Origin: Gemmatimonadales bacterium
GTDB taxonomy: Bacteria > Gemmatimonadota > Gemmatimonadetes > Gemmatimonadales > GWC2-71-9
Assembly (NCBI GenBank): GCA_035309945.1
Contig: DATGEQ010000035.1
Location: 4,292-68,291, forward strand
Length of the DNA stretch: 64,000 bases
Direction of reading: 5' to 3'
This document shows, piece after piece, positions 38,301-46,886 of the stretch. A program made the translations under genes and the position numbers. Below the pieces are notes generated by a model. That model made no database searches, was not told the origin of the DNA, and saw only the letters and a program-made list of their open reading frames with translations. The stretch's first letter is position 1. Each line of letters begins with the position of its first letter.

Positions 38301-39767
38301 GTCTTTGCCTTCAGCGGCCATCGGCGAGATGACGTAGCGCAGATCTTCGTGGCTGTATCCAAATGCGTGCTGGCGCGCCCCGAGCTCATCGGGCGGCAGC
38401 GCCGGTCCGACGGCCGGCACCGCTGTCGGCAGTTTCCGGACGACGCGTTCGGTCCAGCGGCGATACGGGCAGCGCTGTGCGACTTCCAGCTTTGCGTCGT
38501 TGCTCCGCAGGACGACGTTACGGAGTGTGTCCACGACCAGCAGCTCGCCGGGGCCGAGCCGGCCCGACTCGACGACGTGCGCGGGATCGAGATCGACGAT
38601 CCCGACTTCCGACCCCGCGACGACCACGTTATCGCGCGTGATCTTGTAGCGGCATGGCCGGAGCCCGTTGCGATCGAGCGCCGACCCCGCGACCACGCCG
38701 TCGCTGAACGCGAGCGCGGCCGGGCCGTCCCACGGCTCCATCAGTCCCGCGTGATACTCGTAGAAGCTCTTGAGCGCGGGATGCATGTCGGGGACGCGCT
38801 CCCACGCTTCCGGCAGCAGCATCATCAAAGCGTGGACCGGATCGCGCCCCGAGCGCACGAGCAGCTCGAACGCGTTGTCCAGGCTGGTCGAGTCACTGCC
38901 GTCCGTCCAGATCACCGGCTTCAGCAGCTCGACGTCACGATCCCACGCCGGCGCGGCGAGCGCGGGTTCGCGCGCGAGCATCGCGTTGCGATTGCCCCAG
39001 AGCGTGTTGATCTCGCCGTTGTGGGCGAGGAGACGGAACGGCTGGGCCAGCGGCCAGCTCGGCAGCGTGTTGGTCGAGTACCGCTGGTGGAACACGGCGA
39101 TACCGGTCTCGAACAGCGGCGAGCGCAGGTCGGCATAGAAGCTGGGAAGCTCGGTCCCGACGAGCAGCGCCTTGTAGACCACGGTCCGGCAGGACAGCGA
39201 ACACACGAATACCGGTAAACCGGCCTCGGCCGCGCGGCGCTCGATGACGCGCCGCGCGAGGTAGAGCCGCCGTTCCCAGACCTGCGCGTTGGCCGGACCC
39301 GACGGCGGGCCGATGAACAGCTGGCGAATCGCCGGCTGGCTCTGAGCGGCGAGCGGGCCAAGCACGTCGGTGTCGACCGGCACCACGCGCCAGCCCAGCA
39401 CCGACATGCCCAGGCCGACCACGACGGTTTCGATCAGGTCGATCGCGATGTCGCGGGCCGGCCCGGCTTGCGGCAGGAAGAACATGCCGAGCGCGACGCG
39501 CTCGACCGGCCCGACGCCGAGCAGGCGATGCGGGATTTGCGTCAGGACTCCGGCGCCGTCGCCGGAGCGGTCGGTGGACGCGGCGCCACGGTGCGCGAGT
39601 CGCGCGACGGCCGTGAGCGCCATGGCGAGCATCTCGTGATCGCGCCGGCCGTCGGCGCGCGCGACGAAACCGACGCCGCAGGCGTCGCGCTCGCGCCAGG
39701 GATCCAGATAACGAAAAGCCCGCTCTGCTGAGGGAGCGGGCTGGCTGGGTTTCGTTCGTTTCGGCAC
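35352..39767 (-). CDS. gltB: Glutamate synthase large subunit
   Basis: ERDACGVGF (Ntn Cys), HQRYSTNT, HNGEINT, SNSGEGG, KPGEGGQLPG, CAMARQCHLNTC 3Fe-4S motif. Confidence 0.98.
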   Translation of the reverse strand: MPKRTKPSQPAPSAERAFRYLDPWRERDACGVGFVARADGRRDHEMLAMALTAVARLAHRGAASTDRSGDGAGVLTQIPHRLLGVGPVERVALGMFFLPQAGPARDIAIDLIETVVVGLGMSVLGWRVVPVDTDVLGPLAAQSQPAIRQLFIGPPSGPANAQVWERRLYLARRVIERRAAEAGLPVFVCSLSCRTVVYKALLVGTELPSFYADLRSPLFETGIAVFHQRYSTNTLPSWPLAQPFRLLAHNGEINTLWGNRNAMLAREPALAAPAWDRDVELLKPVIWTDGSDSTSLDNAFELLVRSGRDPVHALMMLLPEAWERVPDMHPALKSFYEYHAGLMEPWDGPAALAFSDGVVAGSALDRNGLRPCRYKITRDNVVVAGSEVGIVDLDPAHVVESGRLGPGELLVVDTLRNVVLRSNDAKLEVAQRCPYRRWTERVVRKLPTAVPAVGPALPPDELGARQHAFGYSHEDLRYVISPMAAEGKDAIWSMGDDTPIAPLSKLPQSLYSYVRQRFAQVTNPAIDPLREELVMSLVMHLGRRGSLLAQRPGGRALLRLEHPVLLAEEMAALRRFGGAELVTLSALWEAAAGPAELARAIERLSRDAVKAVRQRGGATILVISDRDADKTRAPIPMLLAIGAVHQRLVQAGQRIRVGLVAEAGDAWDVHHFAALFGFGAEAVHPWLALQCLRDAEWSSEKFRSAAEKGLLKILSKMGISTLQSYAGAQIFEAIGLGQEVIDVCMTGTASVIGGIGFREIAEDVLKRHETAAGGPLPDHGRVRYRRDGEDHGWSPPLVRALQNGEYAGFDERARSRAPAGPRDLLDFQEQTPVPLDEVEPAAEIRRRFISSAMSLGALSPEAHATLAIAMNRMHARSNSGEGGEDPATYASAIDAVDRSDNRIKQVASGRFGVTTAYLVRADELEIKIAQGSKPGEGGQLPGHKVTDLIARLRHAVVGIPLISPPPHHDIYSIEDLAQLIHDLKQVNPAARVGVKLVAEAGVGTVAAGVAKAYADYVLISGHNGGTGASPLSSIKHAGSPWELGLAETQAILMRNKLRQRIEVRVDGGLRTGRDVVIAALFGAESFGFGTATVVALGCAMARQCHLNTCPTGIATQRPELRAKFRGTPEQVIAYFTHIAEDVRRIMASLGVRRMDDLIGRVELLKRIDRPEAPRAGLLDLSMVLTPAASRAEPRRRMVDRNVRPGLVSLDAEMLERRDRGTAPRVIDIGNHHLTVGARIAGELARLYGGGGPGTPLKLRFKGSAGQSFGAFTLPRMHLHLEGEANDHVGKGLCGGEIVIRPFRGAAYANGGSSHVVLGNTALYGATSGRLFAAGSAGDRFAVRNSGAVAVVEGAGDHCCEYMTGGIVVVLGAVGRNFAAGMSNGIAYVLDERAALESRCNLEMVAVTGLNTMDERVLRKLIQQHFHKTGSARARRILAQWETYRTLFRKVAPPAMAEVEERSAAAPITSTP

Positions 39768-39835
39768 TATCGCGCCCCGCCGCTCCCTATGAAGGGTCCG
39801 CCGGTAATATTTGCCAGCAGCGAGGCCATCGTATG

Positions 39836-39883
39836 TTTATGCATTGGTCAACATAAATATACGACTGGGTTCGAAACGTGCAA
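39836..39883 (-). promoter_or_regulatory. gltB promoter with an overlapping inverted repeat (candidate operator)
   Basis: TTGCAC-N16-TATATT on the minus strand. TTTATG-N10-CATAAA at 39836-39857 spans the predicted start site. Confidence 0.5.
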
Positions 39884-39887
39884 GTAC

Positions 39888-40952
39888 CTACGGTGTCCTG
39901 AAGGTGATGCGGGTGATGCGCCCGCGGGGCCCGACCGCCCAGCAGGCTTCGCGCGTAGTACAGTCCACGGCCCAATAGGCTGAGCCGCTCAGGTTGGTCC
40001 ACGAACGGCCGTCGTTCGCCGTCCAGTCCAGTCCTTTAGGTCCCGCAACGATGTACCCCGGCATGCCGGTGAGTGCGTCGGCGCCATAGACCGCGCCGCT
40101 GAACGTCGGGCGGCTCACCAGCGTCCACGTCGCGCCGCCATCACTCGTCACGGCCGCCACACTATCGCTGCGGTCGTCGGGCTTGAGGAGGCGGCCGCCC
40201 AGCGCCATGCCGTGCAGCTCGTCACGGAACGCCAGCGTGGCGACGCCACTGTTTTCGCCGGACACGATCGGCGTCGTCACCACGGACCAGTGCTGACCGC
40301 GATCCGCGGAGCGGTAGACGCGCGCTTGGGGCTCGGTCCCGAACCATGCCCGGGCTTGCCCGCGTACGATCAAGCACGTGCCGCCCGCGGCGGGCGATCC
40401 CTCGTGCGGCAAAGCCGGCGGCATCCCATCCGCGGCGACCGCGCTCCAGTGCTCGCCGTCTGCGGTGCGGATCACGATCATCTTGCCGTGCGCCGCGTCG
40501 CTCACGGCAATGCCATGCGTCGCGTCCCAGAAATCGAAGCAGTCGTAGAAGGCGGCCGAGTCGCGGTTGATGAACTGCAACTGCCAGCTCTGTCCGGCGT
40601 CGGTCGTCTTGTAGATCCGCGAGCTGTCGCCGGGTCCCGCGGCCAGCAGATACGCGGTGGTGGCGCTCACCGCCGCGACGTCGCGGCACTGCAGGGTGGA
40701 ATCGGGGCCTGTCATCGCACCCGGCACCCAGGTGCGGCCGCCATCAACCGTGCGGACCCAGGTCGCTGTGTGACCCGAGACCCAGATCACGCTGTCGTCG
40801 ATCGCGCTCACGGCCTGCAGCAGCGCGGTGGTATGGCTCTCTTGCTCGGTAATGGTACCGACCAGCGCGGGATGGAGATCAGCCTGAGGGCGGGTCCGAT
40901 GGGCGCAGCCCGCGATAAACACGAGCGGCACGAAAAATCGGATCCGGATCAT
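39888..40952 (-). CDS. BNR/Asp-box repeat beta-propeller lipoprotein (YCF48-like)
   Basis: Lipobox IAGC. Repeated Asp-boxes (RTVDGGRTW, KTTDAGQSW, RSADRGQHW, TSDGGATW, TANDGRSW). ATGA overlap with the kamA stop. Confidence 0.85.
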   Translation of the reverse strand: MIRIRFFVPLVFIAGCAHRTRPQADLHPALVGTITEQESHTTALLQAVSAIDDSVIWVSGHTATWVRTVDGGRTWVPGAMTGPDSTLQCRDVAAVSATTAYLLAAGPGDSSRIYKTTDAGQSWQLQFINRDSAAFYDCFDFWDATHGIAVSDAAHGKMIVIRTADGEHWSAVAADGMPPALPHEGSPAAGGTCLIVRGQARAWFGTEPQARVYRSADRGQHWSVVTTPIVSGENSGVATLAFRDELHGMALGGRLLKPDDRSDSVAAVTSDGGATWTLVSRPTFSGAVYGADALTGMPGYIVAGPKGLDWTANDGRSWTNLSGSAYWAVDCTTREACWAVGPRGRITRITFRTP

Positions 40953-42022
40953 CCGACGAGAATCGGCTCGATGGGTTGGCGATACCGATAAGTCTTTCCG
41001 GCGTAATTGCGGAGCACGATTTCCTTATCAGTGAGCTTCACGACGTATTCAGGCAGCAACGGGATCTTCCCGCCGCCGCCCGGGGCGTCGATGACGAAGT
41101 GCGGCACGGCCAGCCCCGACGTCCAGCCGCGGAGCGCCTGGATGATCTCCAGGCCCTTCTCCACTGTCGTCCGAAAGTGCTCCGCGCCCGCCACCTGGTC
41201 GCACATATAGATGTAGTAGGGGCGTACCCGCGCGGCGAGCAGGCGCTGCATCAACAGCTTCATCACCTCCGGGTCGTCGTTCACGCCCTTGAGCAGCACG
41301 GTCTGGCAGCCAAGCGGAATGCCCGCATCCGCGAGCATGCCGAGCGCCGTGACGGCGGCTGGAGTGAGCTCGGCGGGGTGATTGAAGTGTGTGTTGATGT
41401 AAAGCGGATGGTATCGCTTGAGGATCGCGCACAAGGCCGGCGTCACGCGTTCGGGCAGATGGCAGGGTACGCGGCTGCCGATCCTGAGGACCTCGATGTG
41501 CGGAATGGCGCGCAGGCGGCTGCAGATCTCGTCGATGCGCCGGTCCGACAGGAGCAGGGGATCGCCGCCCGACATGATGACGTCGCGGATCTCCTCGTGC
41601 TCCTCGAGGTAGCGAAACGCCGACTCGAGCTGCGCCAGTGGAATCTTCTCGGGATCGCCAACTTTGCGGCGGCGCGTGCAGAAGCGGCAGTACGAGGCGC
41701 ACACCGGCGAAACGAGGAACAGCGCGCGGTCGGGATAGCGATGCGTGATATTCGGGACCGGCGAATTGGCGTCTTCGGCAAGCGAGTCGACGATGCCGTC
41801 TTGTACCTCGAGCTCTTGCACCGTGGGGACGTATTGCCGCCAGATCGGGTCGCCGGGGGATTGGATGAGGTCGACCATGGCGGGCGAGATGCGAAACTCG
41901 AAGTTTGCGGCGGCCTGACGGAGACGGGCGATCTCCCCGACGTGCTCCGGACCGAAACGCGCGGCCAGGGCGTCGAGCGATGCGATGCTCTTCTTACGAA
42001 GTAGCTCTTGCCAGGTCTCCAG
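40949..42022 (-). CDS. kamA: Lysine 2,3-aminomutase-like radical SAM/PLP enzyme (KamA family), probable CTG start
   Basis: THRYPDR, CASYCRFC, SGGDPL, QTVLLKGVND, DAPGGGGK. The frame is open to CTG 42022 (ETWQELLRKKSIASL), with AAGGA 8 nt upstream. Confidence 0.9.
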   Translation of the reverse strand: METWQELLRKKSIASLDALAARFGPEHVGEIARLRQAAANFEFRISPAMVDLIQSPGDPIWRQYVPTVQELEVQDGIVDSLAEDANSPVPNITHRYPDRALFLVSPVCASYCRFCTRRRKVGDPEKIPLAQLESAFRYLEEHEEIRDVIMSGGDPLLLSDRRIDEICSRLRAIPHIEVLRIGSRVPCHLPERVTPALCAILKRYHPLYINTHFNHPAELTPAAVTALGMLADAGIPLGCQTVLLKGVNDDPEVMKLLMQRLLAARVRPYYIYMCDQVAGAEHFRTTVEKGLEIIQALRGWTSGLAVPHFVIDAPGGGGKIPLLPEYVVKLTDKEIVLRNYAGKTYRYRQPIEPILVG

Positions 42023-42494
42023 TAGTCAGATCCTTGATGTAGATCACCAGATCGTCGTCCGGCGCGTAATAGCCCGGAATGGTCGCGGTTCTGGTGTACC
42101 CGCGTGCCTCGTAGAACGCTCTCGTCGACTCGTAATCGGCGCGGGAGCTGGTCTCCACGACGACTAATCGTGCGTCGCGCGTCGTGAGCCGTTGCTCCAC
42201 TGCGTCGAGCAGCTGCGTGCCGATTCCCCGACCCTGATGCGCGCGATCCACGACGATCCAGTAGAGGTCGTAGGTCGCGTCCGTCCCGGGCGTCGGTCCC
42301 CAGCACGCGTAGCCGAGCAGCTGCTCGCCGTCGAATGCGCCGGCGAAGCGATAGTCGTCATCGCCGTCAAGGCTCTCATCCAGCAGCTCGAGCGCGGTCG
42401 CGACCTCTTCCTCGCGGAAGACGCCGGTCCCGCGCGTCAGCTGCTCAAACCGTGCGCGGTGCGCGCGCGCGAGGGGGCGCAGCGAGCAGCTCAC
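41994..42494 (-). CDS. GNAT-family N-acetyltransferase
   Basis: YDLYWIVV...HQGRGIGTQLL, VVETSS..DYESTRAFYE.RGY. GTG start at 42494. Confidence 0.88.
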   Translation of the reverse strand: MSCSLRPLARAHRARFEQLTRGTGVFREEEVATALELLDESLDGDDDYRFAGAFDGEQLLGYACWGPTPGTDATYDLYWIVVDRAHQGRGIGTQLLDAVEQRLTTRDARLVVVETSSRADYESTRAFYEARGYTRTATIPGYYAPDDDLVIYIKDLTTGDLARATS

Positions 42495-43464
42495 GCGCGG
42501 CCTTCGTGCCCTGTGCCTCTCGCAGCGCGAGCTCGGCGATGCGGCGGATGAGCTCGGCGTAATCCCAGCCCGCGGCCTTCGCCATGCGCGACAGACCCGC
42601 GGCATCAGTGAGATCGGGGTTGGGATTTACCTCGAGGATCCAGGGCCTGCCGGCATCGTCGAGGCGGAGATCGACGCGGCCATAGCCCTTGCCTTGCATC
42701 GTGCGCCAGGCGATCTCGGCGAGCCGGCACAGCCGGTCGTTGAGACGCTGCGGGAGTTGTGCCGGACAGACGGGCCGGCTGCCGAGGTCTTCGGGCGAGC
42801 CGGCGTGCCACTTGGCCGCGTACGTGAGAATGGGCCAGACCCCTTCGGGCATGGCGCTGAAATCGATCTCGGCGACGGGCAAAATGCGGTCGCCGACAAA
42901 GCCGACGTTGAACTCGCGGCCGGCGATGTACTGTTGCACGAGCACTTCGTCGAACTGCTCGGTCATCGCCGCGATGCGCGCTTTCAGGCTCTTGCGATCG
43001 ACGACGACGGATTGCCGATCCAGGCCGGCACTCGCGTCTTCGGCCGCGGGCTTCACGATGGCTGGCAGCGGAAAGTCGTCGTCGATCTTCCCTTGCGCGA
43101 TGGTCCAGCGCGGAATCGGCAACCCCGCGCGCTCGAGCATCGTGTTCGCCACCGCCTTGCGGCGGCAGGCGGCCGTCGTCCAGGACCCGCAGCCCGTGTA
43201 CGGGATTCCCGCCAGCTCGAGCGCCCCGACGACGTGGTCCTCCCACTGCGCAACGCCGCGCACCCCTTCGCACAGATTGAAGACGAGGTCGGCCCGCTTG
43301 CATACGTTGAACCAGCGCATATCGTGCCGCACGGGGACGCGCTGTACCTGATGGCCTCGCGAATTGAAAATGCGCGCGATGTCGTCGACCGCCTCCATAA
43401 CTCCCGCGACATCCTCGGCCGTCCAATCTTCCGCGCCGGGATCGTACAGAATGACGACCCTCAT
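42445..43464 (-). CDS. D-Ala-D-Ala ligase-like ATP-grasp protein (copy 2)
   Basis: DLVFNLCEG, IVKPAAEDASAG, VLVQQYIAGREFNV, TYAAKW, YGRVDLR, LEVNPNP. Confidence 0.88.
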   Translation of the reverse strand: MRVVILYDPGAEDWTAEDVAGVMEAVDDIARIFNSRGHQVQRVPVRHDMRWFNVCKRADLVFNLCEGVRGVAQWEDHVVGALELAGIPYTGCGSWTTAACRRKAVANTMLERAGLPIPRWTIAQGKIDDDFPLPAIVKPAAEDASAGLDRQSVVVDRKSLKARIAAMTEQFDEVLVQQYIAGREFNVGFVGDRILPVAEIDFSAMPEGVWPILTYAAKWHAGSPEDLGSRPVCPAQLPQRLNDRLCRLAEIAWRTMQGKGYGRVDLRLDDAGRPWILEVNPNPDLTDAAGLSRMAKAAGWDYAELIRRIAELALREAQGTKAARELLAAPPRARAPRTV

Positions 43465-44531
43465 GCCGAGACAGCGGCTGGTCGGGGTAGGGGCGCGGCA
43501 TGCTGCCCACCTACCGCAACTTCTACTTCGCTCCCGGTAATCCGCCTCCAGGCAATCCGAACGACCTCCTGAATCAACCCGTCGTAGGTGTAGCCGGCGA
43601 CGCGCGCCGCTTTGGGGAAACAGGAGTTCATCGCGGGATCGGGGATGATTCCGGGCAGCGGGTTCAGCTCGACGACGTTGGGAACCCCGAAGCGGTCGAC
43701 GCGGACGTCGATGCGGCACCAATCACGGCAGCCGAGGGCGCGATACGCGTCGAGCGCGACGCGCTCCGTCTCGCGACAGAGTGATTCCGCGACGTCCGTC
43801 GGCGGACACTGAAAGATCGCGAGCGGATGCTCGCGCGTGTCCCAGATCCATTTCGCCTCGTACCCATATACGGGCGGCGCGCCCGCCGGCAGCGTGGCGA
43901 AATCGAATCCGACGACGGGCAGGCAGCGCATGTCGCCGTTGTTGCCGAGGATCGCGACCGTGAACTCGGGACCCGGCAGATAGGTCTCGACCAGCACCGG
44001 CTGGCTGTATCGCTCCAAGAGGAACGGCACGCGCTCGGCGAGCTGCGCCGGCGTCTCGCATAAGTTATTGACAAATATCCCCTTACCAGACCCCTCCGCG
44101 ACCGGCTTCACGAATAGGGGGTAGGGCAGCGGCATGCGCTCGATGTCTTCGACCCGTTCGAGCACACGGAACGGCGCGGTCGGCACGCCGCGATACGCGA
44201 GAACTTCTTTGGTGCGTCCCTTGTGCAGGGTCAGCGCCAGGGTGAGCGGGTCCGAGCCGGTGTACGGGATGTTCAGGTACTCGCACAGTGCCGGCACGTG
44301 CGACTCGCGGCAGGGACCGTGCAATCCCTCGGCCATGTTGAACACGACGTCGGGTTGTGCGAGCGAAAGTTTTTGCGGAAAGAACTGGTCGGCTTCGAGG
44401 CGAACGACGGTGCCGAAGAGACCAAGGGCTTGTTCGACCGCGTCTATCGTCGACGGGTCATCCCATTCTGCGTAGGCATCAGACGCGTCGATCGCGTCGG
44501 GCTTCTCGTTGTACGCGAGGCCTATTCGCAT
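43461..44531 (-). CDS. D-Ala-D-Ala ligase-like ATP-grasp protein (copy 1)
   Basis: VFNMAEG, IPYTGSD, FVKPVAEGSGKGI, VETYLPGPEFTV, YGYEAKW, CRIDVR, ELNPLPG. Confidence 0.88.
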   Translation of the reverse strand: MRIGLAYNEKPDAIDASDAYAEWDDPSTIDAVEQALGLFGTVVRLEADQFFPQKLSLAQPDVVFNMAEGLHGPCRESHVPALCEYLNIPYTGSDPLTLALTLHKGRTKEVLAYRGVPTAPFRVLERVEDIERMPLPYPLFVKPVAEGSGKGIFVNNLCETPAQLAERVPFLLERYSQPVLVETYLPGPEFTVAILGNNGDMRCLPVVGFDFATLPAGAPPVYGYEAKWIWDTREHPLAIFQCPPTDVAESLCRETERVALDAYRALGCRDWCRIDVRVDRFGVPNVVELNPLPGIIPDPAMNSCFPKAARVAGYTYDGLIQEVVRIAWRRITGSEVEVAVGGQHAAPLPRPAAVSA

Positions 44532-44541
44532 TCTGCAAACC

Positions 44542-44570
44542 AGAATACGAAATGGTTTTCAGATGCGCAA
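44542..44570 (-). promoter_or_regulatory. Sigma70-like promoter of the ATP-grasp/GNAT/kamA operon
   Basis: TTGCGC-N17-TATTCT, 10 nt before ATG 44531, preceded by a T-run after the thyX stop. Confidence 0.55.
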
Positions 44571-44580
44571 GAGAAAAAAA

Positions 44581-45333
44581 TCAAACTTTGTGGTAGGTGA
44601 CGCGTGCCGCTTCCTGTTTGTCGTCCGCGAGGTAGATCTCGAAATCCGAAAACAGCGCGCCCGCTTCCCGCTGCAGCAGTCGCAAGACCGCGATCGCCAT
44701 ACGACGGATTTCCAGCTCGGCGCCCTCGCCGCACCGCAGCTCGAGCATCGTGCGCCACGCGCGCGCGTTGCCCGAGACGACGATCTTCACCTCGGTCGCG
44801 TTCGGGAGCACGCTCCGCGCCGCTTCGCGCGCCATCTTGCGACGGTGGACTTTGTCGGCGACCCACTCGTACCGCTGCATCAGTCCTTCCACCGCGCGCA
44901 CGTAGGCGGCCTGCGCCTCGCTCACTTGCTGCTGCCATTCGTCTTCGAGCTTGGGATCGCCGATGATCGCCGGCGGCATGACGAACGCGGCATGCGATTC
45001 GTCGACGTAGCGCTGCGAGATCTGGGAATACCCGAAACCGGCGCGGTGGCGCACCAGCTCGTGCGAGCAGGAGCGCGAAATCCCTTCGATCAGCAACACA
45101 TACACGGCATGCTCCAGCACCGAGCCGTGGCCCTGCTTCTTGATGTTCTCGAGGTATTCGGCCGTGGAGCGATTGATCGGGTTTTGCTGGCTCATGTAGC
45201 ACAGCCGCCCCGCGTACTCGGCGAGCTTCTCGCCGTCGCTCGCTTCGCCGCGCCACTTGACGGCCAGATGCGGCGGCTCGAGAAACTGCGGGCGAGCGAG
45301 CAGCGAGATACGGGGAGCGCGAAAGATTTCCAC
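44581..45333 (-). CDS. thyX: FAD-dependent thymidylate synthase
   Basis: GHGSVLEH, SRSCSHELVRHR.GF.YSQISQRY, REAARSVLPNA, ELEIR. GTG start at 45333. Confidence 0.95.
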   Translation of the reverse strand: MEIFRAPRISLLARPQFLEPPHLAVKWRGEASDGEKLAEYAGRLCYMSQQNPINRSTAEYLENIKKQGHGSVLEHAVYVLLIEGISRSCSHELVRHRAGFGYSQISQRYVDESHAAFVMPPAIIGDPKLEDEWQQQVSEAQAAYVRAVEGLMQRYEWVADKVHRRKMAREAARSVLPNATEVKIVVSGNARAWRTMLELRCGEGAELEIRRMAIAVLRLLQREAGALFSDFEIYLADDKQEAARVTYHKV

Positions 45334-45350
45334 GACGGTGGACGAAGTCT

Positions 45351-46886
45351 CTAGCGTGCCAGCTCGGCTTTCGGTGTGTCCCATGCGGCGCTGCGCTCCA
45401 CGTCGCGAAGTCGTGTTGCGATGTCGTCCGGAATTGCCGCCGCGCCTGCTCCAACCTTCAGCGCCGCGACGGGCGACCAATCGGTCGCGGGAATGATAAC
45501 ACCGGGGTTGAAGATGGACAGCGGGTCGTAGGCCTGTTTGACCTGGCGGAACAGGTCCATCACCTCGGGACCGTAGAATCGCTCGAGCACCCCGGCGCGC
45601 AGTCGTCCGATGCCGTGCTCGCCTGCCGGCACGCCGTGATACGCCAGCACCAACGCGGTGACGTCATCGAACAACGCGCCGAGCGCCTCGCGCCAACCGC
45701 CCCGCGTCGTGTCGGGCAAGGCGTTGACGTGCACGTGACCGTCACCAGCGTGTCCGAACACGGCGACCGGAATGCCGCGGCGCTCGGCGGCCGCTCGCAG
45801 GCCGGTGATGTATGCCCCCAAAGCCGCGAGCGGCACGCAACCGTCTTCGATGACCTGGAGCGAGCGCTGCGTCGCCGGAAGACGCGCGAGGGCGGGGGAC
45901 GCGAGCCGGCGTATGGTCCACAGCTGCTCCAGTCCGGCGCGGTCCACCGCGGTTTCGACGTGCGTGGCCGAATCTTTGAGCTCGCGCACGGCATCGCCCA
46001 CGGCACCGCGCGCCGCGGCGGCCGACTCCCGCTCGAACTCGACGAGCAGCAGGCAGGCGACCTTCGGCGCGTCCGGGATGAACCGCAGCAGAGTTTCATC
46101 GAGCAGCTCCACCGCCGACGGTTGGAGCGAAGCCAGGTATGGCACGGCCTCGGTCAGCGCCGCGACCTCGGCGAAGCCGAGCGCGACGCCGGCGATGTCC
46201 GAGGGGATGGGATCGAGCCGCCAGTGCACCTCCGTCACGATGCCGAGCGTGCCCTCCGAGCCGACCAGGAGATCGACTTCATCGCCGGTCTCAGCGAAGC
46301 GATCGAGCGCGTAGCCTGACGAATTCTTACGGGTCTCGGGAAATCGGTCGGCGATCAGCCGCCTGCCATCTGGCGTCAGCATGAAACGGTCGCTGTCCTG
46401 ACCGCGATCGATGAACGTTACGTCGCCGTCCGCATCGACGACTTCGAGCCCCTCGATCCACTGACGTACGCTGCCGTAGCGCACGGTACGCGGGCCGGCG
46501 GCGTTGGTCATTGCCATCCCGCCGCTCGTCGCGAACGCACCGGACGAGGGATCGGGCGGCAGGCGGAGGCCGTAGGTCCGCGCGGCCGCGTTCAGCCGCG
46601 CCCACGTTACCGACGCGCCGGCCCGGGCGACGCGGGCCTGCGGATCGATGGACAATTGGGCAAAACCGAGGCTCAGATCCACCACGATGTCGGAACCGAC
46701 GTTGCCACCCGGCATGCCACTCCCCGCCCCGCGGGGAATCAATGCTCGGCGCGAGTGTGTCGCCTTGCGCACGAGCGCGACGACATCGTCGACGGTTTCG
46801 GGTATGGCGACGGCCGCGGGGACGATGCGATACGGGCCCGCGCCCTCGGCATAAGCCGCGCGGACGCGAGAGTCGGTGATGAGCAC
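45351..46886 (-). CDS. FAD-binding oxidoreductase (GlcD/D-lactate dehydrogenase-like, VAO family)
   Basis: PRGAGSGMPG, PPDPSS, GSEGTLGIVT, GHAGDGHVH, GEHGIG, DPLSIFNPG. Start placed at GTG 46886. Confidence 0.88.
   Translation of the reverse strand: MLITDSRVRAAYAEGAGPYRIVPAAVAIPETVDDVVALVRKATHSRRALIPRGAGSGMPGGNVGSDIVVDLSLGFAQLSIDPQARVARAGASVTWARLNAAARTYGLRLPPDPSSGAFATSGGMAMTNAAGPRTVRYGSVRQWIEGLEVVDADGDVTFIDRGQDSDRFMLTPDGRRLIADRFPETRKNSSGYALDRFAETGDEVDLLVGSEGTLGIVTEVHWRLDPIPSDIAGVALGFAEVAALTEAVPYLASLQPSAVELLDETLLRFIPDAPKVACLLLVEFERESAAAARGAVGDAVRELKDSATHVETAVDRAGLEQLWTIRRLASPALARLPATQRSLQVIEDGCVPLAALGAYITGLRAAAERRGIPVAVFGHAGDGHVHVNALPDTTRGGWREALGALFDDVTALVLAYHGVPAGEHGIGRLRAGVLERFYGPEVMDLFRQVKQAYDPLSIFNPGVIIPATDWSPVAALKVGAGAAAIPDDIATRLRDVERSAAWDTPKAELAR

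What the first reader, a model, noticed from the sequence alone, without database searches (positions are those of the whole stretch)
39888..44570. Two ATP-grasp ligases + GNAT + lysine 2,3-aminomutase + BNR lipoprotein: candidate beta-lysine peptide pathway
Seen: one promoter (TTGCGC-N17-TATTCT) and five overlapping genes. The KamA keeps CxxxCxxC, the PLP lysine (GGGGK) and both Asp residues that bind the lysine side chain in true LAM (MCDQ, IDAP), unlike EpmB or glutamate aminomutase. Known: KamA plus the AblB acetyltransferase makes the osmolyte N-epsilon-acetyl-beta-lysine, and Ddl-like ATP-grasp enzymes form amide bonds. Inference: adding two divergent ligases and a short GNAT points to an acetylated beta-lysine di/tripeptide or a non-canonical cell-wall precursor. 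I know no characterised product for this gene set. The co-transcribed propeller lipoprotein could bind or process it outside the cell.
Basis: partly seen in the sequence, partly recalled or inferred. Interest (0 to 1): 0.75.

Follow-up and report, generated by a model that had tools for sequence, protein, structure and literature searches.

The report
Conserved beta-lysine ligase operon
Four overlapping genes (a lysine 2,3-aminomutase, two enzymes shaped like D-alanine ligase, and a small acetyltransferase) form a unit kept together in many bacterial phyla that probably builds an acetylated beta-lysine amide nobody has described; the fifth gene, a propeller lipoprotein, is a local insertion and not part of it.

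Summary
On the minus strand, AG1 (43461-44531), AG2 (42445-43464), a GNAT (41994-42494, GTG start), KamA (40949-42022, CTG start) and a BNR lipoprotein (39888-40952) overlap one another. They lie behind TTGCGC-N17-TATTCT. That promoter keeps its fixed spacing in 65 related Gemmatimonadales loci.

KamA keeps every lysine 2,3-aminomutase signature of the solved Clostridium enzyme.

Both ligases keep all Ddl catalytic residues but fail the curated Ddl cut-offs, and neither groups with canonical Ddl in a tree (AG2 clade well supported, AG1 clade moderately). The genome has a true Ddl elsewhere.

AG1-AG2-GNAT-KamA recurs in the same order in Ignavibacteria. It recurs in permuted order in Myxococcia, Victivallales, Dehalococcoidales, Desulfovibrionales and Planctomycetota. 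KamA-AG1 and AG2-GNAT also occur as fused proteins.

The BNR gene follows KamA in only 2 of about 75 related loci, so it is not a member.

Some lineages add an HDAC-type deacetylase. This suggests the acetyl group sits on a terminal amine and can be removed.

I found no EpmA, no AblB, no riboswitch and no paper on this gene set.

Best reading: a cytoplasmic pathway from lysine to beta-lysine to an amide with two new bonds, acetylated at some stage. Product and role are unknown. It is a new variant of known ATP-grasp small-molecule pathways.

The parts
44565..44570 (-). -35 hexamer TTGCGC of the cassette promoter
   Evidence: Read. TTG(C/T)G with a fixed 17-nt spacer to the -10 is conserved in 65 related loci.
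44542..44547 (-). -10 hexamer TATTCT. It ends only 10 nt before the AG1 start codon, so the transcript is leaderless or nearly so.
   Evidence: In the window's clade the -10 lies 8-10 nt from the ATG. In other Gemmatimonadales a 71-101-nt leader lies between them.
43461..44531 (-). AG1, a Ddl-like ATP-grasp ligase of 356 aa. Probably the ligase that takes beta-lysine directly.
   Evidence: PF07478 at 97.6 bits. NF002378 at 163 bits against a 243-bit cut-off. All Ddl catalytic residues are kept, Y216 is W, and the N-terminal motif AE[WF]D is invariant. AlphaFold model pLDDT 86.9; best PDB matches are all Ddl, TM 0.72/0.81. Fused to KamA in L097, P0143, P0178 and P0244.
42445..43464 (-). AG2, a second and paralogous Ddl-like ATP-grasp ligase of 339 aa
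   Evidence: PF07478 at 97.6 bits. NF002378 at 155 bits, below the cut-off. Catalytic residues are kept. S150 is A, Y216 is W and L282 is G in every orthologue compared; G149 is D in 8 of the 10 AG2 orthologues. It forms its own clade with 100/99 support. Fused to the GNAT in L099 and P0268.
41994..42494 (-). Small GNAT acetyltransferase of 166 aa with a GTG start
   Evidence: PF00583 at 52.7 bits. The start codon is conserved in 59 of 75 relatives. It is 45% identical to PDB 2R7H, a structural-genomics entry named 'putative D-alanine N-acetyltransferase'. A protein 99% identical to 2R7H sits in a KamA-AG-AG-GNAT cassette.
40949..42022 (-). KamA-family lysine 2,3-aminomutase of 357 codons, starting at the near-cognate codon CTG
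   Evidence: 366 bits to 2A5H, with CxxxCxxC, R134, D293, D330 and K337 conserved. TIGR00238 at 282 bits against a 199-bit cut-off; TIGR03820 at 437 against 525. Start position and selection on the N-terminal 48 codons. It is the only KamA-family gene in the genome.
39888..40952 (-). BNR/Ycf48-like propeller lipoprotein of 354 aa. It is translationally coupled here but is a lineage-specific insertion, not a cassette member.
   Evidence: Lipobox FIAGC; weak PSII_BNR, Sortilin and BNR matches. Absent after KamA in all but 2 of about 75 related loci and in all other phyla.

Best explanation
This is a cytoplasmic four-enzyme pathway.

Proposed steps:
1. KamA converts L-lysine to (3S)-beta-lysine.
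2. AG1 takes up the beta-lysine. AG1 is the ligase found fused to KamA elsewhere.
3. AG1 and AG2 are both catalytically competent Ddl-type ATP-grasp ligases. Each forms one amide bond through an acyl-phosphate.
4. The small GNAT, which is fused to AG2 elsewhere, acetylates an amine of the substrate or product. The most likely site is the terminal N-epsilon of the beta-lysyl unit.

The product would be an N-acetylated beta-lysine-containing di- or tripeptide-like amide built from common metabolites, because the unit encodes no other biosynthetic enzyme and no exporter. Its role is probably physiological, as a compatible solute or organic cation, rather than antibiotic.

Shown:
- Gene structure, conservation and fusions.
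- Catalytic residues.
- The ligases are not Ddl.
- EpmA and AblB are absent.

Inferred:
- Substrate order.
- Site of acetylation.
- Identity of the co-substrates.
- Physiological role.

The BNR lipoprotein is a passenger gene.
For: Conservation:
- The four genes are adjacent in about 75 of 80 Gemmatimonadota loci.
- They lie in the same order in about 60 Ignavibacteria/Melioribacter loci.
- They lie in the order KamA-AG1-AG2-GNAT in Myxococcia, Victivallales, Dehalococcoidales, Desulfovibrionales and Planctomycetota.
- No flanking gene family is shared across phyla.

Fusions:
- KamA-AG1.
- AG2-GNAT.

Enzymes:
- KamA keeps the lysine-binding Asp pair and the PLP lysine.
- Both ligases keep K97, K144, E187, K215, R255, D257 and N272 in every phylum compared; E180 and E270 show conservative changes in a few AG2 sequences (E180 is Q in the window's own AG2).
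- AG1 and AG2 are separate clades, and neither groups with canonical Ddl.
- The GNAT has the acetyl-CoA motif and a solved orthologue.

Deacetylase: an HDAC/acetylpolyamine-amidohydrolase-type gene lies inside or directly after the cassette in 4 of 7 KamA-first places. Enzymes of this family remove acetyl from terminal aliphatic amines.

Exclusions:
- A canonical Ddl lies elsewhere in this genome and in 5 of 6 other carriers.
- There is no EpmA and no AblB.

Precedents:
- Ngg, which both acetylates and ligates to make the osmolyte NAGGN (PMC8070244).
- HsvB and HsvC, two ATP-grasp ligases that assemble phevamine A (PMC6187163).
Against: - No product has been observed, and every chemical step is inference from family membership.
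- KamA scores below the AblA equivalog cut-off and lacks the C-terminal region of the solved enzyme, so another basic amino acid cannot be strictly excluded as substrate.
- Some relatives have AG1-AG2-GNAT with only a divergent KamA-like gene 3-4 kb away (L076-L078).
- Myxococcota have tandem-fused AG proteins with KamA unlinked. The ligase-GNAT core may therefore accept other amino acids.
- The near-cognate start codon of KamA in this clade argues for low KamA expression, which fits a bulk osmolyte poorly.
- The unit is present in only 73 of 146 good Gemmatimonadota genomes, so it is dispensable.
- Where a deacetylase is co-encoded, the final product may not be acetylated at all.
Confidence: 0.6

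Rival explanations
1. The ligases build an oligo- or poly-beta-lysine chain, a polycation analogous to the beta-lysine chain of streptothricins or to epsilon-poly-lysine. One ligase would start the chain and the other would extend it. Acetylation would act as a reversible masking or self-protection step.
For: - Beta-lysine is the only dedicated building block encoded.
- There are two distinct ligase clades.
- AG2 has conserved extra acidic residues near the Ddl substrate sites, at Ddl positions 149 and 276.
- GNAT and HDAC-type deacetylase occur together in some cassettes.
- From general knowledge, small GNATs inactivate streptothricin by acetylating its beta-lysine.
Against: - No exporter or immunity gene is conserved with the unit.
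- Ddl-type enzymes are not known to act iteratively.
- Vertical, housekeeping-like inheritance next to thyX and gltB in Gemmatimonadales is not typical of an antibiotic cluster.
Confidence: 0.13
2. The enzymes modify a protein or ribosomal peptide after translation, attaching beta-lysine. This would replace the EpmA/EpmB modification of EF-P or resemble RimK tailing of ribosomal protein S6, with the RimI-like GNAT acetylating the same target.
For: - The genome has KamA but no EpmA.
- The GNAT's best curated match is RimI, at 46 bits and below the cut-off.
- ATP-grasp enzymes of other families do modify proteins (general knowledge).
Against: - No conserved small ORF or target gene accompanies the unit.
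- The ligases are of Ddl type, not RimK type.
- Half of Gemmatimonadota lack the unit, which does not suit a translation-factor modification.
- KamA is of the LAM type, not the EpmB type (230 bits against a 369-bit cut-off).
Confidence: 0.08
3. The ligases make a non-canonical peptidoglycan precursor, such as a dipeptide or cross-bridge containing beta-lysine. The BNR lipoprotein would handle it outside the cell.
For: - Family resemblance to Ddl.
- ATGA coupling of the BNR gene to KamA in this window.
Against: - A canonical Ddl exists in this genome and in 5 of 6 other carriers.
- The unit occurs in a Dehalococcoidales genome with no canonical Ddl, and that group is known to lack peptidoglycan.
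- No mur or dcw genes are nearby.
- The BNR gene is absent from nearly all other copies.
Confidence: 0.04
4. [quoted passage not shown]
For: - KamA is closest to AblA/LAM.
- A GNAT is adjacent.
- Some Desulfovibrionales carriers are, from my recollection, species of marine or saline habitats (names).
Against: - The GNAT is not AblB-like, and no TIGR03827 match exists anywhere in the genome.
- Fusions tie KamA to AG1 and the GNAT to AG2.
- The four genes travel together across phyla.
Confidence: 0.05

Closest known systems
AblA/AblB (KamA/YodP) pathway to N-epsilon-acetyl-beta-lysine, the compatible solute of methanogens and some bacteria
   Same: A LAM-type lysine 2,3-aminomutase is encoded next to a GNAT. 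The product is probably an acetylated beta-lysine derivative, and it is cytoplasmic.
   Different: The GNAT is a 166-aa protein unrelated to the AblB model. Two obligatory ATP-grasp ligases are added. KamA lacks the C-terminal 45-55 residues and scores below the AblA equivalog cut-off.
NAGGN pathway (Ngg/AsnO) of Sinorhizobium and Pseudomonas
   Same: One system combines N-acetylation with ATP-dependent peptide-bond formation to make a small acetylated peptide solute from common amino acids (PMC8070244). The AG2-GNAT fusions found here echo the bifunctional Ngg.
   Different: There is no AsnO-type amidotransferase. A radical-SAM aminomutase supplies a beta-amino acid. There are two separate Ddl-type ligases. 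Homology to Ngg was not tested.
Phevamine A pathway (HsvA, HsvB, HsvC) of Pseudomonas syringae
   Same: A compact operon in which one enzyme prepares a cationic building block and two different ATP-grasp ligases add amide bonds in sequence (PMC6187163).
   Different: The building-block enzyme there is an amidinotransferase acting on spermidine, not an aminomutase. It has no acetyltransferase. It is a narrowly distributed virulence trait, whereas this unit spans many phyla.
D-alanine-D-alanine ligase (Ddl) and the Van ligases
   Same: The fold and the complete ATP/Mg catalytic residue set are shared.
   Different: Scores fall below the curated cut-offs. Both ligases fall outside the canonical Ddl clade. 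The substrate triad is altered. There is no cell-wall gene context. A true Ddl exists elsewhere.
EpmA/EpmB beta-lysylation of EF-P
   Same: It uses a KamA-family enzyme to supply beta-lysine for an amide bond.
   Different: There is no EpmA in the genome. KamA is of the LAM type (DAPGGGGK) and not the EpmB type (REIGGEPSK).

Membership tests
D-alanine-D-alanine ligase (Ddl) | Three-domain ATP-grasp fold of the Ddl type | tested here: met
   PF07478 matches for both ligases. AG1 model pLDDT 86.9; the top 50 PDB matches are all Ddl, TM 0.72/0.81.
D-alanine-D-alanine ligase (Ddl) | ATP/Mg and catalytic residues (E. coli DdlB K97, K144, E180, E187, K215, R255, D257, E270, N272) | tested here: met
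   Kept in AG1 and AG2 of all phyla compared, apart from conservative E180Q (the window's AG2) and E270D (three AG2 sequences).
D-alanine-D-alanine ligase (Ddl) | Score above the curated family cut-off (NF002378, 243 bits; TIGR01205, 245.65 bits) | tested here: not met
   On NF002378, AG1 scores 163 bits and AG2 155 bits. The genome's 240-aa canonical Ddl fragment scores 264 bits.
D-alanine-D-alanine ligase (Ddl) | Substrate-site residues E15, S150 and Y216, and S281/L282 | tested here: not met
   Y216 is W. In AG2, S150 is A and L282 is G. The E15 segment is replaced by an AE[WF]D motif in AG1.
D-alanine-D-alanine ligase (Ddl) | Groups with canonical Ddl in a tree | tested here: not met
   E. 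coli DdlB and the genome's own Ddl form a clade with 100/99 support. AG2 forms a separate 100/99 clade and AG1 a separate 82/71 clade.
D-alanine-D-alanine ligase (Ddl) | Makes D-Ala-D-Ala | not testable with these tools
   Needs an enzyme assay.
Lysine 2,3-aminomutase (KamA/LAM) | Radical-SAM CxxxCxxC motif, PLP lysine, and the residues that bind lysine (R134, D293, D330 of 2A5H) | tested here: met
   CASYCRFCTRRR, MCDQ and IDAPGGGGK align residue for residue with 2A5H.
Lysine 2,3-aminomutase (KamA/LAM) | Score above the KamA family cut-off (TIGR00238, 199.2 bits) | tested here: met
   281.9 bits.
Lysine 2,3-aminomutase (KamA/LAM) | Score above the AblA equivalog cut-off (TIGR03820, 525.4 bits), with the full C-terminal domain | tested here: not met
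   437 bits. The match ends at model position 361 of 417, and the protein ends near residue 373 of 2A5H.
AblA/AblB acetyl-beta-lysine pathway | AblB-type acetyltransferase (TIGR03827) | tested here: not met
   No match anywhere in the genome. The cassette GNAT matches only generic GNAT models.
EpmA/EpmB EF-P modification | EpmA (GenX) ligase present, and an EpmB-type aminomutase | tested here: not met
   The best TIGR00462 match is 256.7 bits against a 286.9-bit cut-off, in a 636-aa open frame that I take to be LysRS (inferred, not checked). TIGR03821 scores 230 against 369. The motif differs from E. coli EpmB.
GNAT acetyltransferases | Pfam GNAT domain above the cut-off, with the acetyl-CoA loop | tested here: met
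   PF00583 scores 52.7 bits against 20.7. The HQGRGIG loop is present in the sequence. It is 45% identical to the solved GNAT 2R7H.
NAGGN (Ngg/AsnO) pathway | AsnO-type amidotransferase beside a GNAT/ligase protein | tested here: not met
   No such gene lies in or next to the unit in any phylum examined. Sequence relation to Ngg was not tested.

The most novel reading that the evidence does not exclude
The cassette makes a so far unrecognised, widely distributed class of beta-lysine-based amide metabolites, acting as organic cations or compatible solutes. The acetyl group would be a removable protecting or on/off group, written by the small GNAT and erased by the HDAC-type deacetylase that some cassettes carry. 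In Gemmatimonadales, production would be controlled by a conserved promoter plus a leader attenuator, which this clade has lost.
Probability: 0.35. Interest if true: 0.8.

Novelty: new variant of a known kind. Interest (0 to 1): 0.62.

Why it matters
Beta-lysine has few known fates: lysine fermentation, the acetyl-beta-lysine osmolyte, EF-P modification and a few antibiotics. This would be another.

The route is encoded by one compact unit in soil Gemmatimonadales, in about 60 sampled Ignavibacteria and Melioribacter loci, in several named Desulfovibrionales species, and in Planctomycetota and other phyla. A common microbial metabolite is therefore probably still unidentified.

The unit is easy to test:
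- It has four small genes.
- Cultured carriers exist (Stygiobacter electus, Desulfovibrio mangrovi, and relatives of the 2R7H source organism).
- One member already has a crystal structure.

Automatic annotation currently mislabels the ligases as D-alanine-D-alanine ligase. In this clade it would also truncate KamA by 48 residues.

Tried and rejected
- Riboswitch or known RNA element upstream: no relevant Rfam match in the window, in nine loci from other phyla (only group II intron domains in L106, well upstream of its cassette), or in a Gemmatimonadales leader.
- A link to the genome's third Ddl-like gene (contig C89, with a Peptidase_Mx/zinc-ribbon protein and an MFS transporter): it is present in 64 of 146 genomes of the phylum but does not track the cassette, so it is a separate system.
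- A link to the genome's stand-alone HDAC-like gene: that family is in 135 of 146 genomes, so there is no specific co-occurrence.
- Conserved extra genes around the unit across phyla: none found.
- Further fusion partners among 20 odd-length homologues: only KamA, ATP-grasp and GNAT domains.
- Fitness data for Desulfovibrio alaskensis G20: no supplementary files are held. My guessed locus tags found nothing.
- Literature on the gene set: ten searches found no description of it (one search failed on syntax and was not counted).
- EF-P role and plain AblAB role: rejected as above.
- The tandem-fused Myxococcota proteins first looked like AG1-AG2 fusions, but both halves fall with the AG1 type.

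Full report
**Anatomy**

The window comes from a Gemmatimonadales genome of 3.07 Mb in 120 contigs, 95% complete. Between thyX (44581-45480) and the gltB leader, five genes lie head to tail on the minus strand:

- AG1, 43461-44531.
- AG2, from ATG 43464 to 42445, in an ATGA overlap with AG1.
- A GNAT, 42494-41994.
- KamA, ending at 40949.
- A lipoprotein with BNR repeats, 40952-39888, in an ATGA overlap with KamA.

Two starts needed work.

The GNAT starts at GTG 42494, 50 nt inside AG2. That GTG is conserved in 59 of 75 relatives.

The KamA frame is open from 42025. Its first ATG, GTG or TTG is at 41878, which would remove 48 residues that align with the N-terminal region of KamA enzymes.
- In 51 of 71 related loci an ATG stands exactly where the window has CTG 42022.
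- Seven close relatives also have CTG there, and five have ACG; all but one of these (L005, with a GTG one codon upstream) have no canonical start upstream.
- Among these 14 genomes the 48 codons differ at 1518 synonymous and 398 non-synonymous codon positions. Nucleotide differences run 183/203/1724 by codon position.
- The stretch is therefore translated, and initiation must be at the near-cognate codon. A gene caller would truncate this protein.

**Promoter**

They are a weak consensus match and the scan missed them.

Comparison rescues them. TTG(C/T)G(C/T)-N17-TAT(T/A)(C/G)T occurs at fixed spacing upstream of AG1 in 65 related loci, down to 57% protein identity, while the spacer varies freely.

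In the window's clade the -10 ends 8-10 nt before the ATG. That implies a leaderless or near-leaderless transcript.

In all other Gemmatimonadales a 71-101-nt leader follows the promoter. It contains:
- a conserved GACAACGC box;
- a short hairpin (GGACCGC...GCGGCC) with a run of six or seven U;
- a strong AGGAGG.

No Rfam family matches it. This looks like an attenuator that the window's clade has deleted.

**The enzymes**

KamA:
- It aligns with the solved Clostridium subterminale lysine 2,3-aminomutase at 366 bits.
- It has the CxxxCxxC cluster motif, Arg134, both Asp residues that hold the lysine epsilon-ammonium, and the PLP lysine in GGGGK.
- It passes the KamA family cut-off but not the AblA equivalog cut-off, because it ends about 45-55 residues early.
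- E. coli EpmB keeps the first Asp, has Glu for the second, and reads GEPSK.
- It is the only KamA-family gene in the genome.

AG1 and AG2:
- Both match the Ddl C-terminal domain. They score 163 and 155 bits where the curated Ddl model needs 243.
- A 240-aa fragment at a contig edge scores 264 bits, so the genome has a true Ddl.
- Twenty-two cassette ligases from several phyla, and a third paralogue from this genome (AG3), were aligned with E. coli DdlB. Both ligase types keep the ATP, Mg and catalytic residues in every lineage, apart from conservative E180Q and E270D changes in a few AG2 sequences.
- The substrate-site residues differ. Y216 becomes W. AG2 has Ala for S150 and Gly for L282. 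AG2 also has an acidic residue at Ddl positions 149 and 276 in most lineages. AG1 has an invariant AE[WF]D motif where Ddl has E15.
- In a maximum-likelihood tree the two canonical Ddl sequences form one clade (100/99). AG2 sequences form another (100/99). AG1 sequences form a third (82/71, with strongly supported subclades).
- The AG1 model is confident (pLDDT 86.9). Its nearest solved folds are all Ddl.

GNAT:
- It has the acetyl-CoA loop.
- It is 45% identical to PDB 2R7H, a structural-genomics entry called 'putative D-alanine N-acetyltransferase'.

**Conservation and fusions**

AG1-AG2-GNAT-KamA lie together in about 75 of 80 Gemmatimonadota loci. They lie in the same order in about 60 Ignavibacteria and Melioribacter loci, including the isolate Stygiobacter electus.

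The order KamA-AG1-AG2-GNAT occurs in:
- Myxococcia, Victivallales/Lentisphaerae and Dehalococcoidales;
- the Desulfovibrionales, including a locus encoding a protein 99% identical to 2R7H, plus Desulfovibrio mangrovi and Oceanidesulfovibrio indonesiensis;
- a Planctomycetota genome and a further metagenome contig.

No flanking gene family is shared between phyla.

Natural fusions join KamA to AG1 (an 821-aa protein in L097; P0143, P0178, P0244). They also join AG2 to the GNAT (a 586-aa protein in L099; P0268).

In the phylum itself the unit is present in 73 of 146 good genomes, mostly in the window's own family and order.

**The BNR gene**

In nearly all related loci the KamA stop is followed directly by the conserved gltB upstream region. 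A BNR homologue appears in only two loci, 400-800 nt downstream, and in no other phylum. In this genome it has been inserted exactly between KamA and the gltB promoter. It is probably co-transcribed, but it is not part of the conserved system.

**Context clues**

- In Desulfovibrionales a sigma-54 enhancer-binding protein sits directly upstream.
- In 4 of the 7 KamA-first places examined, a protein of about 580-600 aa with an HDAC/acetylpolyamine-amidohydrolase domain lies inside or just after the cassette. It often has a weak GNAT-like N-terminus and overlaps the GNAT gene.
- That family removes acetyl groups from terminal aliphatic amines. This points to N-epsilon of the beta-lysyl unit as the acetylation site. 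It also suggests the acetyl group may be a protecting or switching group.
- The window's genome has only a stand-alone HDAC-like gene, and that family is near-universal in the phylum.

**What it is not**

- It is not Ddl (see above).
- It is not a cell-wall system. Five of six carriers from other phyla have their own canonical Ddl. The exception is a 1.4-Mb Dehalococcoidales genome, whose only Ddl-like genes are the cassette pair. That group is known to lack peptidoglycan, though the completeness of this genome is unknown.
- It is not the EF-P system, because there is no EpmA.
- It is not the plain AblAB osmolyte pathway, because there is no AblB-type enzyme.

**Mechanism proposed**

Lysine is converted to (3S)-beta-lysine by KamA. 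AG1 and AG2 each form one amide bond through an acyl-phosphate. The GNAT acetylates an amine, probably N-epsilon. No other biosynthetic gene and no exporter belongs to the unit, so the co-substrates should be common metabolites and the product should be intracellular.

The fusion pattern (KamA with AG1, AG2 with GNAT) and the permuted gene order fit the sequence KamA, AG1, AG2, GNAT. They do not prove it.

The closest working analogues are:
- Ngg of the NAGGN osmolyte pathway, which both acetylates and ligates (PMC8070244);
- the two ATP-grasp ligases of the phevamine pathway (PMC6187163).

A physiological role as a solute or organic cation is an inference from the broad, mostly vertical distribution. 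From my own recollection, several Desulfovibrionales carriers come from saline habitats and Gemmatimonadota are adapted to dry soils. The low-efficiency start codon of KamA in this clade argues against bulk production here.

**Literature and earlier notes**

Ten full-text searches found no paper on this gene set. Earlier notes from this scan describe the same cassette in many other genomes and reach the same general reading. I treated them as leads. Here I re-derived the conservation, the fusions, the overlaps and the deacetylase association. I did not test their claims about archaea and Chlamydiae.

**Verdict**

This is a real, conserved and apparently undescribed beta-lysine ligation pathway, and a new variant of known ATP-grasp small-molecule pathways. 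The product is unknown.

Noticed in passing
window 41879-42022 (minus strand): KamA begins at a near-cognate codon. It is CTG here and in 7 close relatives, ACG in 5 others, and ATG in 51 of 71 relatives. The 48 codons before the first canonical ATG are under clear purifying selection. Automatic annotation would truncate the protein to 309 aa.
   Followed up: yes
L021-L078, about 70-100 nt upstream of AG1 (for example L032:6929-7000): In Gemmatimonadales outside the window's clade, the same promoter is followed by a conserved leader. It has a GACAACGC box, a terminator-like hairpin GGACCGC..GCGGCC with U6-7, then AGGAGG and a conserved spacer CCCGAGACCAC. There is no Rfam match. The window's clade has lost this leader, so its -10 abuts the start codon.
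   Followed up: partly
window 39700-39885 (minus strand): The conserved gltB upstream region looks like an attenuator of glutamate synthase. It has a promoter-like CTTGCA-N17-TATTTAT. A GGGAGCGG segment can pair with the 5' arm of a strong terminator-like hairpin (39742-39717) followed by a short U-rich stretch (UUUUCGUU). The hairpin overlaps the first listed gltB start (GTG 39767), so the true start is probably further downstream. Rfam gives only sub-threshold matches (Trp_leader, 19.5 bits against 41).
   Followed up: partly
own genome contig C89 (locus L082:491-3579, minus strand): A third Ddl-like ATP-grasp gene (332 aa, with a PEWDD N-terminal motif) is translationally coupled to a protein with multiple zinc ribbons and a Peptidase_Mx domain. 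An MFS transporter precedes it. It is present in 64 of 146 genomes of the phylum, independently of the cassette.
   Followed up: partly
L189:8629-10386, L190:5211-7004, L191:5265-7004, L193:5250-7004: An HDAC/acetylpolyamine-amidohydrolase-type protein of about 580-600 aa, often with a weak GNAT-like N-terminus, is a recurrent fifth gene of KamA-first cassettes in Desulfovibrionales, Planctomycetota and a metagenome contig.
   Followed up: partly
L076, L077, L078 and their genomes (G001-G003): Some Gemmatimonadota have AG1-AG2-GNAT without the usual KamA. They do have a divergent KamA-family gene (165-176 bits, below the family cut-off); in L076 and L077 it lies 3-4 kb downstream on the same contig (the L078 genome's copy was not placed). 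In L077 the next ORF (474 aa) was not identified. The ligase core may work with a different beta-amino acid there.
   Followed up: partly
L090-L096 (Myxococcota): These loci carry tandem-fused double ATP-grasp proteins of about 650-720 aa. Both halves group with the AG1 type. In L090 and L096 a convergent GNAT plus AG2-type gene lies alongside. KamA is encoded elsewhere in these genomes.
   Followed up: partly
L001, L004, L006, L017, just after the KamA stop: A GC-rich palindrome (GGTAGGGGCGCAGCATGCTGCGCCCCTAC) sits between KamA and the gltB promoter in several close relatives but not in the window. It may be a repeat element or a terminator without a U run.
   Followed up: no
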